Origin: an uncultured Ruminococcus sp.
GTDB taxonomy: Bacteria > Bacillota > Clostridia > Oscillospirales > Ruminococcaceae
Length of the DNA: 64,000 nucleotides
Direction: 5' to 3'
Assembly (NCBI GenBank): GCA_947345935.1
Contig: CAMZZN010000001.1
Coordinates: 47,049 to 111,048, forward strand
Position 1 is the first letter of the stretch; every line of letters begins with the position of its first letter. The notes under the pieces are model-generated. The model had not been told where the DNA came from and made no database searches. It saw nothing but the letters and a program-made list of their open reading frames with translations. Of this stretch, positions 16,773 to 19,524 are shown piece by piece. The translations under genes were made by a program, and so were the position numbers.

Positions 16773-17273
16773 ATGAATCTTAATGAAAAAATGTCATATC
16801 TTCAGGGGCTTCTTGCAGGTCTTGAGCTTGATACCACTACAAAAGAGGGCAAAGCTATCACGAAAATGGCAGAAGTTATGTCGGAACTTGTTCTTTATGT
16901 AGACGATCTTCAGTCACAGGTGGACGAGCTTACAGAGTTGTGTGATATTCTTGACCAGGATCTCGGCGCTGTAGAGGATGACTTTTATGACGATGACGAA
17001 TTTGAATGTTCCGGTAACTGTGACAACTGCGATGAAGACGACTGGAGAGACGACGGCAGCGACGATGATTTTGATGAATATGACGATGATGAAGATGATG
17101 AGTTGTATGAGATAAATTGTCCTACCTGTGGCGATACTATTCTTCTTGATGAGGGAATGCTTGAGGAAGGTTCTATCAATTGTCCGAACTGCAATGAGCT
17201 TCTTGAATTCGATTATGATGATCTTAAAATAGAAGATATCGAGGAGCTTAACGAAGGCGAGTCCGAGCAGTAA
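16773..17273 (+). CDS. Acidic CD1247-like protein with C-terminal zinc ribbon
   Basis: N-terminal helical region (YLQGLLAGLE), D/E-rich middle, CPTC...CPNC. Typical efp neighbour in Clostridia. Confidence 0.75.
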   Translation: MNLNEKMSYLQGLLAGLELDTTTKEGKAITKMAEVMSELVLYVDDLQSQVDELTELCDILDQDLGAVEDDFYDDDEFECSGNCDNCDEDDWRDDGSDDDFDEYDDDEDDELYEINCPTCGDTILLDEGMLEEGSINCPNCNELLEFDYDDLKIEDIEELNEGESEQ

Positions 17274-17291
17274 TTTAATATGATGCAAATT

Positions 17292-17325
17292 AAAATATCC
17301 GTCCTTTACAGGGCGGATATTTTTT
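17292..17325. terminator. Bidirectional intrinsic terminator between convergent genes
   Basis: AAAATATCCGTCCT / AGGGCGGATATTTT inverted repeat with A run before and T run after. Confidence 0.85.
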
Positions 17326-17336
17326 ATTATACGGTA

Positions 17337-17912
17337 TTATCTGACACCATAGTCAGCCAGTATGCGCAGAGCTGTTTCACGCCTTGTCTGCCGGCTGTTC
17401 ATTGCCTGTTTTTCAATGTAACGATGAGCTTGCGGTTCGGTAAATTTCAGATATTTCATAAGTGTCGCCTTGGCACGACTGATTATTCGGATCTCTTCGG
17501 TTTTTATCAGAATATCGGAACTTTCTTTTTTCAGCTCTGCAAATCCCCCATGAGAAGCGGCAGCAAGATCTGCAGCTTCTGAAAAAAGTATCCTGCTGAC
17601 AGGGCGTGAAACAACGTATATCCCACTTTCACAGACGTATTCGGCAATATCGCCGGAAATATCATTTCCGCAGATGAGTATAACGCCCGTCTGATATTCC
17701 TCAGCGATCATTAGTGAAAGTTCCTGACCAAATTCGTCAGAAAGCGGAGTATTTATGACTGCAAGACTGATTTCCGGATCGGTACGCATAAATCTGCGTG
17801 CTTCACTTCCGCTTGAAACAACCGTGATGAGGCTGACCCCATCTGCCCTTAGAAATTGCTCAATCATGGAAGCAATCTCTTCAGAGGATGAAACTATTAG
17901 TGCCTTGTTCAT
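17337..17912 (-). CDS. ANTAR-domain antiterminator with a degenerate (pseudo-)receiver domain
   Basis: ANTAR motif IISRAKATLMKYLKFTEPQAHRYIEKQAMN. Receiver fold has VSS in place of the acidic pocket and N (VINTP) at the phosphoacceptor position. Confidence 0.9.
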   Translation of the reverse strand: MNKALIVSSSEEIASMIEQFLRADGVSLITVVSSGSEARRFMRTDPEISLAVINTPLSDEFGQELSLMIAEEYQTGVILICGNDISGDIAEYVCESGIYVVSRPVSRILFSEAADLAAASHGGFAELKKESSDILIKTEEIRIISRAKATLMKYLKFTEPQAHRYIEKQAMNSRQTRRETALRILADYGVR

Positions 17913-17929
17913 ATTCTGAATATCCTTTT

Positions 17930-19225
17930 CTAAATAATTTTAAAGTAGGTCTTGTCCTCAAATTCATCTTTATTCCGGGCAAGATCATAATTTTTTAGCT
18001 GCTCATCAAGCTGCCGGAAGATATTTTTTCTGGTTTCGTGGGAGAGCGTATGCTTGACGAATTCGCTGTTTTCAGCAATTTCTGCGGCTTCTTTCAAAGA
18101 ATGAGGCAGAGCCTGCAATTCACTTACGGCAGTTGTGGATTTTCTTGTCCTTTCCAGAAGAGAGCAGTCACCGCTGCGTATTCCTTCCATGCCGGCTGCC
18201 AGTATAAGCTTAAATGTAATGTATGGATTGCAGGCTGCGTCAGCAGAGCGTATTTCAATCCCTGACAGAGAACCGACGGCACGTGGAAGTCTTATAAGCT
18301 GCGAACGGTTTTCGCATGACCAGTCAACATATTTAGGGGCATATCCGATGCCGAATCGTCTATATGAATTTGTGGTGCTGTTGAGAAATGCGGTTATCTC
18401 GCAGATGCGCCTTAAAATACCTGAAATAAAACATTTTCCGTTGTGTGACATTTCATCGAAATCAGGGTGGAACAAATCCTCACCTGATTTTTTTATGCTC
18501 AGAGATATGCTCAGGGCGCTTCCGTGTTCGTCCGCAAGAGGTTTGGGCATAAACGAAGCGAAAAGACCATTCTGGGCGGCAATTGATTTTACTACGGTCT
18601 TGTAATGGACCATATTGTCGGCTGCGGTAACAGGTTCGCTTTCACGGAATTCTATTTCGTTCTGGGCAGGACCATGCTTGTGGCAGGAACTACGTGGGTT
18701 CATTCCCATTTCCTCCAGAGACAGACAGATCTCACGCCTTGCGTTTTCACAGCGGTCGAGGGGCGCTACGTCCATAAAACCACCGTTGTCGTGCGGAATT
18801 TTGGTGGGTTCGCCCCGTTCGTCCAGTTCAAAAAGGTAAAATTCGCATTTTGTTCCCATTTCACAGGAATATCCCTCAAGGCGCAGCTGATTTATATAAT
18901 TTGTAAGTTCCGTGCGCATATCACCGACGTAGTCAGAGCCGTCGGTATTTTTCAAACTACAGAAAAAGCGGACTACACGTCCTGATTTAGGCCGCCATGG
19001 TAGAACAGAAAGAGTGGATATATCAGGCATCAGCATCAGGTCGGAGCATCCTTCGTAAATACTGGAAGCGTCAAACGGGATACCGTATTCAAAAGCCCTG
19101 GGAAGCTCGTCCGGCATTATTGCAAGATTTTTCAGGCTGCCGAACATATCACAGAAAGTGAGACGGATAAACTTAACGTCGTTTTCTTCAATGAACTTCA
19201 GCAGTTCTTTTGGAGAATTGTTCAT
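17930..19225 (-). CDS. Glutamine synthetase type I-like protein, probably catalytically degenerate
   Basis: GSI fold motifs (FDASS, FMPKP, NRSQLIRLP, IEIRSADAACNPY) present, but several metal and catalytic residues are substituted (see findings). Confidence 0.88.
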   Translation of the reverse strand: MNNSPKELLKFIEENDVKFIRLTFCDMFGSLKNLAIMPDELPRAFEYGIPFDASSIYEGCSDLMLMPDISTLSVLPWRPKSGRVVRFFCSLKNTDGSDYVGDMRTELTNYINQLRLEGYSCEMGTKCEFYLFELDERGEPTKIPHDNGGFMDVAPLDRCENARREICLSLEEMGMNPRSSCHKHGPAQNEIEFRESEPVTAADNMVHYKTVVKSIAAQNGLFASFMPKPLADEHGSALSISLSIKKSGEDLFHPDFDEMSHNGKCFISGILRRICEITAFLNSTTNSYRRFGIGYAPKYVDWSCENRSQLIRLPRAVGSLSGIEIRSADAACNPYITFKLILAAGMEGIRSGDCSLLERTRKSTTAVSELQALPHSLKEAAEIAENSEFVKHTLSHETRKNIFRQLDEQLKNYDLARNKDEFEDKTYFKII

Positions 19226-19273
19226 GGTAAAACCTCCGTAAAAATTGATTTGCGTGGGAATTTTCTATCTTCA

Positions 19274-19302
19274 ATTATATCACTTTTTCATGCTAAAGTA
19301 AA
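19274..19302 (-). promoter_or_regulatory. Sigma-A promoter of the GS-like/ANTAR operon
   Basis: Minus strand TTTACT, 17 nt, TATAAT with extended TG, about 50 nt before the ATG. Confidence 0.6.
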
Positions 19303-19524
19303 TAGTTTCGGAAAAATTTGACTTATCTTTTCATTTTCTTTGCATTTTTGTGAGGACTTTATTGTTTCATATATGGTATATTATAAAAGATCCAGGGTAT
19401 ATTGAATGTCACATATACAATATGCTTTATGTTATATTAAACAGAGGATCACTTAGAGCATATTCACATAAAATATGTTTTGAATTTCTGAAACATATTT
19501 TAAGAAATAAGGGAGTTTGTTAGA

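What the first reader, a model, noticed from the sequence alone, without database searches (positions are those of the whole stretch)
17337..19225. Candidate new signalling system: catalytically dead glutamine synthetase as the sensor for an ANTAR antiterminator
Seen, aligned by eye to B. subtilis GlnA: GPE132PEFF becomes GTKCEFY (E to K); SHHE189V becomes SCHKH (E to K); NGSGMH245 becomes HGSALS (H to S); the catalytic E304 flap GYEAP is GY-AP (deleted); the IEGFVRIEESD loop is shortened to IYEGCSD. D53, E134, E196, R298, R316, R321, E333 and R335 equivalents are kept. Loss of metal ligands, two replaced by Lys that could mimic the cation, with substrate-binding Arg residues retained is typical of a ligand-binding pseudo-enzyme. 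The gene sits 17 nt from a pseudo-receiver ANTAR gene behind one promoter, and no kinase is present. Established analogies: B. subtilis GS controls GlnR/TnrA by protein contact; AmiC controls the ANTAR protein AmiR; glnA-nitR occurs in Clostridium saccharobutylicum. Inference: the pseudo-GS senses glutamine, glutamate or nucleotide and switches antitermination of nitrogen-assimilation leaders elsewhere in the genome.
Basis: partly seen in the sequence, partly recalled or inferred. Interest (0 to 1): 0.88.

Follow-up and report, generated by a model that had tools for sequence, protein, structure and literature searches.

The report
Dead glutamine synthetase paired with antiterminator
A rumen Ruminococcus keeps a glutamine-synthetase copy that has lost its catalytic metal-binding residues, always encoded next to an RNA-binding antiterminator that cannot be phosphorylated. 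The pair most likely forms the still-unidentified nitrogen sensor that opens terminators in front of the ammonium-uptake and glutamate/glutamine-synthesis operons.

Summary
The 431-aa GS-like protein (window 17930-19225, minus strand) aligns over its full length with solved type I-alpha glutamine synthetases. It has Lys for two metal-ligand Glu residues and Ser for the metal-ligand His. It has no catalytic flap Glu and lacks the Arg62 loop. A 191-aa ANTAR protein without a phospho-acceptor pocket starts 17 nt downstream.

Comparative data support a functional pair:
- The Lys substitutions are fixed in 121 orthologue clusters.
- The genome has a second, differently degenerate GS-like/ANTAR pair after gltBD, plus two intact type III GlnN enzymes.
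- In 300 Clostridia genomes, GS-I and ANTAR co-occur (137 both, 133 neither, 15 and 15 alone).
- 75 of 77 relatives chosen by the GS gene alone have ANTAR directly downstream.
- All GS-linked ANTARs lack the receiver acidic pair.

ANTAR-type hexaloop hairpins overlap terminators in front of amt-PII-pyrG-glnN and gltBD. A sister species whose only pair is this one keeps those leaders.

Direct contact between the two proteins and the ligand are not shown. 2-oxoglutarate is a strong candidate ligand. The module is a pseudo-enzyme variant of the known clostridial glnA-nitR pair, not a wholly new system.

The parts
17930..19225 (-). gs1: a 431-aa type I-alpha glutamine-synthetase paralogue with a dismantled active site (K126, K183, S239, no flap Glu, R62 loop deleted)
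17337..17912 (-). ANTAR1: a 191-aa pseudo-receiver plus ANTAR antiterminator. It has SS in place of the CheY D12/D13 pair, and N54 (VINTPL) in place of the phospho-acceptor Asp.
19274..19302 (-). Sigma-70-type promoter (TTTACT, 17 nt, extended TG, TATAAT) for the two-gene operon. The 5' UTR is about 40 nt and contains no terminator.
17913..17929 (-). 17-nt intergenic spacer with the RBS of ANTAR1. Orthologues have 8-20 nt here.
17292..17323 (.). Bidirectional intrinsic terminator that ends the gs1-ANTAR1 operon and the convergent ORF

Best explanation
gs1 is a catalytically inert glutamine-synthetase paralogue that has been kept as a metabolite-sensing subunit. ANTAR1 is its output subunit. 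This is inferred, not shown.

Proposed mechanism:
1. The gs1 oligomer reads nitrogen/carbon status by binding a small molecule. The best candidate is 2-oxoglutarate at the inter-subunit allosteric site known from archaeal GS. Glutamate or glutamine in the vestigial active site, where the two Lys residues replace the lost metal ions, is the alternative.
2. In one ligand state gs1 holds ANTAR1 through its non-phosphorylatable receiver-like domain. In the other state it releases ANTAR1. This copies AmiC-AmiR and NasS-NasT.
3. Free ANTAR1 binds hexaloop hairpins (A at loop position 1, G at position 4) in the leaders of amt-PII-pyrG-glnN and gltB-gltD-gs2-ANTAR2-purF. Each hairpin shares bases with the 5' arm of an intrinsic terminator, so binding prevents termination and switches ammonium uptake and GS/GOGAT on.

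Actual glutamine synthesis is done by two type III GlnN enzymes. The gs1-ANTAR1 operon has its own promoter and no attenuator. It therefore looks like the standing sensor, while the second pair (gs2-ANTAR2) sits inside the regulated operon as a feedback copy.
For: Shown:
1. Loss of 3 of 6 metal ligands, of the flap Glu and of the R62 loop, in proper alignments.
2. Purifying selection on the replacements. K/R at position 132 and K at 189 occur in 121/121 orthologue clusters, and frames are intact in 35 of 41 genomes of the genus.
3. Real GS candidates exist. Two GlnN genes are present, and one aligns end to end with B. fragilis GlnN 3o6x with its catalytic motifs intact.
4. Exactly two ANTAR genes occur in the genome, each directly after a degenerate GS-I gene.
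5. Within the genus, the number of ANTAR genes matches the number of GS-I-like genes in 11 of 13 genomes re-checked (0, 1 or 2; the two exceptions have an extra ANTAR on a short or cut contig). 20/20 gs1 and 20/20 gs2 orthologues are followed by their ANTAR.
6. At class level, 137 genomes have both genes, 15 have ANTAR only, 15 have GS-I only and 133 have neither, out of 300 (odds ratio 81). 56 of 80 ANTAR loci have GS directly upstream. 75 of 77 clade-B GS loci picked by GS alone have ANTAR directly downstream, including Treponema and Endomicrobia.
7. Every GS-linked ANTAR lacks the receiver acidic pair, and most have N, G or H at the Asp57 position. ANTARs not linked to GS are often canonical DD-D-T-K. 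The site drifts (N/D/V/Y/C/S/E) among ANTAR1 orthologues.
8. A graded series runs from intact GS, through E304K only, to multiply degenerate forms within one well-supported clade.
9. Targets exist. The amt leader has a dual hexaloop P1/P2 overlapping a terminator, and its 33-nt core is 94-98% identical in many genomes of the genus (matches in 18 fetched loci). A single-hexaloop hairpin overlaps a first terminator. The gltB leader has a hexaloop hairpin whose A1 and G4 are invariant and whose position 3 varies, overlapping a covarying terminator.
10. Genome G320 has only the gs1-ANTAR1 orthologues (gltB-gltD-purF with no gs2-ANTAR2), yet it keeps all these attenuators.
11. The M. mazei 2-OG contact residues F24, R26, R87, R172, R173 and S189 are invariant in 121/121 gs1 orthologues and in 27-29 of 29 other clade-B members. 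Only 159 of 431 positions are invariant overall.

Literature lead: in C. thermocellum the same layout exists, and deleting the type I GS is reported by title to deregulate nitrogen metabolism.
Against: - No experiment or structure shows gs1 and ANTAR1 touching.
- Adjacency could simply mean a regulator next to its ancestral target gene.
- The 2-OG site residues are also largely conserved in ordinary GS-I of Clostridia, so their conservation does not single out this ligand.
- Which ANTAR paralogue binds which hairpin is unresolved. Genomes with only gs2-ANTAR2 (G312, G361) keep the same leaders.
- Genome-wide scans for further targets were no better than controls.
- Co-occurrence statistics are not corrected for phylogeny.
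- The single-chain AlphaFold model was poor (pLDDT 58.5).
- No transcript data could be obtained.
Confidence: 0.6

Rival explanations
1. gs1 is a regulatory pseudo-enzyme, but ANTAR1 is not its direct client. It might modulate GlnN, the Amt-PII fusion or another protein. ANTAR1 would then be controlled in some other way, for example by the PII domain or by a ligand bound to its own receiver-like domain. The two genes would be co-expressed only because they belong to the same nitrogen circuit.
For: - No direct contact is shown.
- A PII domain is fused to Amt in the regulated operon.
- GS proteins are known to bind several kinds of partner (PDB 4s0r GS-TnrA, 8tfb family GS-GlnK).
Against: - The near-obligatory adjacency (75/77), the one-to-one gain and loss in most genomes of the genus, and the tight 8-20 nt coupling are stronger than expected for mere membership of one regulon.
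- GS-linked ANTARs specifically lack phospho-acceptor residues, so they need a protein or ligand input, and no other candidate sensor gene is conserved beside them.
Confidence: 0.2
2. Adjacency reflects only ancestry. NitR-type ANTAR genes sit next to glnA because they regulate it. In Ruminococcus the glnA copy became redundant after GlnN took over and is drifting, without having gained a new function.
For: - Clade A loci show intact glnA followed by ANTAR, with ANTAR-type leaders upstream of glnA.
- gs1 and gs2 sit on very long branches (1.6 substitutions per site).
Against: - Frames are intact in 35 of 41 genomes at 62-86% identity.
- The replacement residues themselves are fixed (K/R at 132, K at 189, A at 243).
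- 159 positions are invariant, including all 2-OG contact residues and the Glu-binding Arg residues.
- Two independent degenerate lineages are retained side by side, and each is lost only together with its ANTAR.
- Many 50%-identity clusters of degenerate GS-like proteins persist in metagenomes.
Confidence: 0.05
3. gs1 is still an enzyme with altered chemistry, for example a gamma-glutamyl ligase for another amine, or a metal-independent reaction that uses the two Lys residues.
For: - GS-like paralogues with new ligase activities exist. NCBIfam gives weak hits to gamma-glutamylputrescine synthetase and to the type III model. Glutamate-methylamine ligase 9qur is among the PDB hits.
- The Glu-binding residues E134, R298 and R335 are kept.
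Against: - All characterised members of the fold use two metal ions bound by the six ligands, and three of those are lost here.
- The flap Glu is gone.
- The ATP-contact R316 equivalent varies freely among orthologues.
- All NCBIfam equivalog scores are far below their cut-offs.
Confidence: 0.07

Closest known systems
glnA-nitR(-gltAB) nitrogen cluster of Clostridium saccharobutylicum NCP262 (NitR; Stutz et al. 2007, as cited in PMC6316151), and the C. thermocellum cluster Clo1313_2030 (ANTAR) / 2031 (type I GS) / 2032-2036 (GOGAT)
   Same: - Gene order is GS-I followed by an ANTAR response-regulator-like gene.
- The pair is linked to GOGAT genes (true for the gs2 pair here).
- NitR is described as an antiterminator that induces GS/GOGAT under nitrogen limitation, by a mechanism called not fully understood.
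   Different: - The GS partner here is catalytically dead, and the genome has two such pairs.
- This pair is unlinked from GOGAT and has its own unattenuated promoter.
- GlnN supplies GS activity.
- An antisense RNA, as reported for C. saccharobutylicum, was not looked for.
- No paper in the searchable library proposes GS as the sensor for NitR.
AmiC-AmiR (Pseudomonas aeruginosa) and NasS-NasT (Paracoccus) sensor/ANTAR pairs
   Same: An ANTAR protein with a receiver-like domain that is not phosphorylated is controlled by a separately encoded ligand-binding protein. The output is antitermination at a leader terminator.
   Different: The sensor there is a periplasmic-binding-protein fold that binds amides or nitrate. 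Here the candidate sensor has a glutamine-synthetase fold and is presumably a large oligomer. The complex itself is not shown here.
Bacillus subtilis GS controlling TnrA and GlnR (PDB 4s0r, 4lnf)
   Same: A type I-alpha GS acts as the nitrogen sensor and regulates gene expression by protein contact. gs1 is about 45% identical to this enzyme.
   Different: B. subtilis GS is an active enzyme whose glutamine-inhibited state depends on R62 and E304, and both are absent here. Its clients are MerR-type DNA-binding proteins, not an RNA-binding antiterminator.
2-oxoglutarate-activated GS of Methanosarcina mazei (PDB 8s59; PMC11957540)
   Same: It is the best PDB hit (E 7e-90). All direct 2-OG contact residues (F24, R26, R87, R172, R173, S189) are conserved in gs1 and its orthologues.
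   Different: The M. mazei protein is a working enzyme in which 2-OG drives dodecamer assembly. No antiterminator partner is known there.
EutV/EutW ANTAR system and its dual-hexaloop RNA substrate (Ramesh et al. 2012, PMC3369931)
   Same: The RNA logic is the same: two hexaloop hairpins with A1 and G4, the second sharing bases with a terminator. That paper also found such sites before ammonium-transporter, PII, and glutamine and glutamate synthase genes.
   Different: EutV is a true response regulator phosphorylated by EutW. Here there is no kinase, and several sites have only a single hexaloop hairpin overlapping the terminator.

Membership tests
Type I glutamine synthetase (GlnA, TIGR00653) | Gln-synt_N beta-grasp domain plus Gln-synt_C catalytic domain, full length | tested here: met
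   PF03951 E 9e-20 and PF00120 E 3.7e-74. Full-length alignment to 8s59 and 4lnf.
Type I glutamine synthetase (GlnA, TIGR00653) | Score above the curated equivalog cut-off | tested here: not met
   298.4 bits against a cut-off of 429.15.
Type I glutamine synthetase (GlnA, TIGR00653) | Six metal ligands (B. subtilis E132, E134, E189, E196, H245, E333) | tested here: not met
   E132K, E189K and H245S. The other three are kept. The changes are fixed in orthologues.
Type I glutamine synthetase (GlnA, TIGR00653) | Catalytic flap Glu (E304) and Asp50' (D53) | tested here: not met
   D52 is kept. The flap position is Tyr295 or a gap, with no acidic residue in any of 121 orthologues.
ANTAR antiterminators (PF03861) | C-terminal ANTAR three-helix domain | tested here: met
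   PF03861 E 2.2e-13, 50.2 bits against a cut-off of 27.3.
ANTAR antiterminators (PF03861) | Cognate RNA: hexaloop hairpins (A1, G4) overlapping an intrinsic terminator | tested here: met
   Found in the same genome, outside the window. The amt-PII leader is at C44:15209-15072(-) and the gltB leader at C44:16187-16285(+). Both are conserved and covarying in the genus. Binding by this particular protein was not tested.
Two-component response regulators (phosphorylated receiver) | Acidic pair, phospho-acceptor Asp, Thr/Ser and Lys (CheY D12, D13, D57, T87, K109) | tested here: not met
   S, S, N, C, R at these positions. The site varies among orthologues. No adjacent kinase.
glnA-nitR module of clostridia | GS-I gene immediately followed by an ANTAR gene on the same strand | tested here: met
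   17-nt gap here. 56/80 and 75/77 in the comparative sets.
glnA-nitR module of clostridia | The GS member is the cell's working glutamine synthetase | tested here: not met
   The active site is dismantled. GlnN is present and intact. Enzyme activity itself cannot be tested with these tools.
AmiC-AmiR / NasS-NasT partner-switch ANTAR systems | Ligand-dependent complex between the sensor protein and the pseudo-receiver of the ANTAR protein | not testable with these tools
   No complex prediction or experiment was available. Only genomic coupling is shown.
AmiC-AmiR / NasS-NasT partner-switch ANTAR systems | Sensor of the periplasmic-binding-protein fold | tested here: not met
   The partner has a GS fold.
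B. subtilis-type GS regulator of TnrA/GlnR | R62 and E304, which create the glutamine feedback-inhibited, regulator-binding state | tested here: not met
   The R62 loop is deleted and the flap Glu is absent, in gs1 and in the whole of clade B.

The most novel reading that the evidence does not exclude
The two pseudo-GS/ANTAR pairs in this genus are not redundant. They would form a two-sensor circuit. gs1-ANTAR1, expressed from an unattenuated promoter, would be the standing sensor of one metabolite, such as 2-oxoglutarate. gs2-ANTAR2 is embedded in the attenuated gltBD operon and is degenerate at different residues (D53, E132, E304 and R316, with H245 and E189 kept). It would read a second metabolite, such as glutamine, and supply feedback. 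The tandem attenuators in the amt-PII-pyrG-glnN leader (a single-hexaloop T1, then a dual-hexaloop T2) would integrate the two inputs as a logic gate. More broadly, the GS fold would have been recruited repeatedly as a signal receptor across Clostridia, spirochaetes and Endomicrobia.
Probability: 0.2. Interest if true: 0.8.

Novelty: new variant of a known kind. Interest (0 to 1): 0.6.

Why it matters
How clostridia sense nitrogen status is an open question. They lack TnrA/GlnR and NtrBC, and NitR is described as working by a mechanism that is not fully understood.

This locus, with the comparative series around it, gives a concrete and testable answer: the GS-I protein encoded beside NitR-type antiterminators is the sensor. 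In lineages where GlnN took over catalysis, the GS-I copy has been reduced to a pure receptor.

About half of the sampled Clostridia carry the module. These include major rumen and gut fibre degraders and cultured species such as R. flavefaciens, Anaerotruncus colihominis and C. thermocellum. In C. thermocellum, deleting the type I GS is already reported to deregulate nitrogen metabolism and raise ethanol yield.

If confirmed, this would be a clear bacterial case of an ancient central enzyme turned into a signalling pseudo-enzyme. It would also be a new class of input for ANTAR antiterminators.

Tried and rejected
- AlphaFold2 of gs1 with 22 close orthologues gave a poor model (mean pLDDT 58.5). 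It was not used, and fold search was not run.
- Rfam gave no hit above gathering score in the window. In the amt/gltB leader locus it gave only far sub-threshold noise, so the leaders are not a known riboswitch or T-box.
- Genome-wide scans of my own for dual or single hexaloop hairpins with terminators gave counts like control loops (19 hits; 13 against 0-14; 16 against 2-20). Only the C44 sites were convincing.
- I tried to assign the dual-hexaloop site to ANTAR2 and the single-hexaloop sites to ANTAR1, from presence and absence across genomes. This failed. G320, which has only gs1-ANTAR1, does carry the dual site with compensatory changes that my 3-mismatch pattern missed. G312, which has only gs2-ANTAR2, carries all the sites.
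- The gs1 leader (window 19226-19524) has no terminator or hexaloop element.
- The second glnN (C41) also has a plain short leader.
- Rydzak et al. 2017 is not held. Only its title and citing statements were used.
Full report
**What is there**

The window is part of contig C1 (47049-111048) of a 2.73-Mb Ruminococcus genome. The closest named relative of the gene is R. flavefaciens.

On the minus strand a 431-aa ORF (17930-19225) is followed, after 17 nt, by a 191-aa ORF (17337-17912).

- The first ORF has both glutamine-synthetase Pfam domains.
- The second has an ANTAR domain and a receiver-like N-terminus that scores below the Pfam cut-off.
- A good sigma-70 promoter with an extended -10 lies at 19302-19274. 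It leaves a plain UTR of about 40 nt.
- A bidirectional terminator at 17292-17323 closes the operon.
- The neighbours are a divergent FemAB-family gene and a convergent acidic zinc-ribbon ORF. There is no kinase.

**The active site**

HMMER alignments to solved type I-alpha enzymes are unambiguous over the whole length: M. mazei 8s59 at E 7e-90 and B. subtilis 4lnf at E 4e-87.

In B. subtilis numbering:

- The n2 ligands E132 and H245 are K126 and S239.
- The n1 ligand E189 is K183.
- G243 is Ala.
- The D50' loop is 4 residues shorter and lacks R62.
- There is no acidic residue at the catalytic flap.
- D53, E134, E196, R298, R316, R321, E333 and R335 are present.

Within its own clade the flap is one residue shorter and the E304 position is Tyr, so "deleted" is a matter of alignment. 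The GlnA equivalog model scores 298 bits against a cut-off of 429.

In 121 orthologue clusters at 73-95% identity, the pattern is this:

| Position | State in orthologues |
|---|---|
| 132 | always K or R |
| 189 | always K |
| 243 | always A |
| flap Glu | always absent |
| R316 equivalent | varies freely |

This is selection for a changed site, not decay. It also argues against a nucleotide ligand.

**The rest of the genome**

There are four GS-family genes:

- gs1.
- A second 425-aa GS-I paralogue, gs2.
- Two roughly 695-aa type III GlnN genes. One aligns end to end with B. fragilis GlnN with its catalytic motifs intact.

There are exactly two ANTAR genes, and the second directly follows gs2.

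gs2 is degenerate in a different way: D53T, E132S, E304S, R316E and R321M. In 20 orthologues D53 is never Asp, E132 is always Ser, and E304 is always Ser or Thr.

Contig C44 joins the start of C1. This gives one nitrogen supercluster:

- On one strand: glnN, pyrG and an Amt-PII fusion.
- Divergently: gltB, gltD, gs2, ANTAR2 and purF.

gs1-ANTAR1 lies about 62 kb away.

**Is the pairing meaningful?**

*Sampling by ANTAR.* ANTAR is present in 152 of 300 Clostridia genomes. Of 80 loci fetched, 56 have a GS-I gene immediately upstream on the same strand.

*Co-occurrence.* In the same 300 genomes, 137 have both genes, 15 have ANTAR only, 15 have GS-I only and 133 have neither. The odds ratio is 81 and Fisher p is 5e-49, uncorrected for phylogeny.

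*Sampling by GS alone.* In named genomes, 75 of 77 loci with room downstream have ANTAR directly after the GS gene. These include Anaerotruncus colihominis, Marasmitruncus, Ruthenibacterium, Allobaculum, and Treponema and Endomicrobia MAGs.

*Within the genus.* In 11 of 13 genomes re-checked, the number of ANTAR genes equals the number of GS-I-like genes, at 0, 1 or 2. The two exceptions have an extra ANTAR on a short or cut contig. All 20 gs1 and all 20 gs2 orthologues examined are followed by their own ANTAR, at 8-20 nt and 12 nt respectively.

*Receiver domains.* Every GS-linked ANTAR lacks the CheY D12/D13 pair, and most carry N, G or H at the phospho-acceptor position. ANTARs not linked to GS are often canonical. 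Among ANTAR1 orthologues the site drifts (N, D, V, Y, C, S, E), while the motifs SGSEARR and PLxDEFGxEL stay fixed.

**Evolutionary series**

A maximum-likelihood tree splits the ANTAR-linked GS genes into two clades with 100/99 support.

- Clade A contains B. subtilis GlnA. It has every catalytic residue, the R62 loop and the LVPGYEAP flap.
- Clade B proteins are 400-440 aa, have no R62 and have a shorter flap. gs1 and gs2 belong here, on very long branches.

Among 80 named relatives retrieved with a clade-B profile:

- 25 keep all 12 residues.
- 37 have one change, mostly E304K.
- 18 have 2 to 6 changes.

There is a stepwise path to gs1: first E189K with E304L; then D53N, E132R, E189K and H245K; then the K/K form of R. 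flavefaciens.

Among the 105 full-length representatives of 50%-identity clusters nearest to gs1, about 85 carry at least one change at these positions, and the K132/K189 pattern recurs.

**RNA targets**

*The amt-PII leader (C44, minus strand)* has these elements in order:

1. A promoter.
2. A hairpin CAGC-AAAGGC-GCTG that shares bases with terminator T1.
3. A weak P1 hairpin (loop AGCGCT).
4. P2, CATACAC-AAAGGG-GTGTATG, whose 3' arm is the 5' arm of terminator T2.

The P1-P2-T2 part is the published ANTAR substrate layout. The 33-nt P1-P2 core is 94-98% identical across many genomes of the genus (matches in 18 fetched loci), and some genomes have several copies.

*The gltB leader* has these elements:

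1. GAAC-AAGGAC-GTTC overlapping a terminator. Loop positions 1 and 4 are invariant and position 3 varies across the 17 leaders inspected.
2. A second hairpin with loop AAWGGC and many compensatory changes. In a 13-sequence alignment, 11 of 25 predicted pairs show double changes.

Rfam has nothing for these leaders. My own genome-wide scans found no further convincing sites.

**Does this particular pair act there?**

Genome G320 (92% complete) has gltB-gltD-purF with no gs2-ANTAR2 in between. Its only GS-I-like and ANTAR genes are the gs1 and ANTAR1 orthologues.

Its amt leader still has H1', T1, P1, P2 (with compensatory stem changes) and T2. Its gltB leader still has H1 and the terminator.

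So the gs1-type pair alone coexists with the full set of attenuators. The converse also holds for gs2-only genomes (G312, G361). The two pairs therefore probably share targets, and I could not separate their roles.

**Ligand**

The residues that contact 2-oxoglutarate in M. mazei GS are F24, R26, R87, R172, R173 and S189 (PMC11957540). They are invariant in 121/121 gs1 orthologues and in 27-29 of 29 other clade-B members, although only 159 of 431 positions are invariant overall.

They are also mostly conserved in ordinary clostridial GS-I. This makes 2-OG a good candidate, not a demonstrated ligand.

The Glu-binding residues E134, R298 and R335 are kept as well. The two fixed Lys residues sit where the metal ions would neutralise the acidic cluster, so metal-free binding of Glu or Gln in the old active site remains possible. 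The B. subtilis route of glutamine sensing through R62 and E304 is excluded.

**Literature**

NitR of C. saccharobutylicum is a known ANTAR antiterminator encoded after glnA. Its mechanism is described as not fully understood.

C. thermocellum has the same layout of ANTAR, type I GS and GOGAT, plus three GlnN genes. Deleting its type I GS is reported, by title, to deregulate nitrogen metabolism.

Ramesh et al. found ANTAR-type sites before nitrogen genes in Firmicutes.

Searches for ANTAR together with glutamine synthetase, or for a GS pseudo-enzyme, found no paper that proposes GS as the ANTAR sensor. The library is incomplete, so this is absence in what could be searched.

**Earlier notes of this scan**

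Earlier notes describe the same module in at least 25 other genomes. I treated them as leads. The single-hairpin and 2-OG ideas were re-tested here, with the results above.

**Verdict**

- A conserved pseudo-GS is functionally tied to a kinase-less ANTAR protein that very probably controls the amt-PII-pyrG-glnN and gltBD operons.
- The sensor role and the direct contact are inferred. I hold the full model at 0.6.

It is a new variant of the known glnA-nitR and sensor-plus-ANTAR kinds, not a categorically new system.

Noticed in passing
Same genome, outside the window: G000 C1:2897-4770 (L002:1189-3062): A second pseudo-GS/ANTAR pair (gs2, 425 aa; ANTAR2, 199 aa) lies between gltD and purF. It is degenerate at different residues from gs1: D53T, E132S, E304S, R316E and R321M.
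   Followed up: yes
Same genome: C44:15249-15020(-) and C44:16160-16290(+): The divergent leaders of amt-PII-pyrG-glnN and gltBD carry tandem attenuators with hexaloop hairpins. The gltB leader has an extra covarying hairpin (loop AAWGGC) after the terminator and just before the RBS. Its role is unexplained; it might act on translation or RNA stability.
   Followed up: partly
Same genome: C44:13168-15012(-): The ammonium transporter is fused to a C-terminal PII domain (PF00909 plus PF00543). The same fusion is described for C. thermocellum Clo1313_2260.
   Followed up: partly
P0121 (4424 aa) and P0132 (2757 aa) from the representative search: Two giant proteins contain 12 and 6 GS-like stretches, each about 31% identical to gs1. 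They could be tandem GS-domain arrays or assembly or gene-calling artefacts.
   Followed up: no
Genus relatives G318 and G328: Two genomes of the genus have neither a GS-I-like gene nor an ANTAR gene. G318 is 98% complete. The whole module is therefore dispensable in some lineages.
   Followed up: partly
window 16773-17273 (+): A 166-aa, extremely acidic ORF has two CxxC pairs and a weak CSL zinc-ribbon hit. It is convergent with the operon and shares its terminator.
   Followed up: no
L013, L017, L063, L065, L069, L070, L078, L082 (other Clostridia): ANTAR genes not linked to GS carry canonical DD(or ED)-D-T/S-K receivers. L017 and L069 have dual-hexaloop sites nearby and are probably EutV-type systems. 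They served as an internal contrast set.
   Followed up: partly
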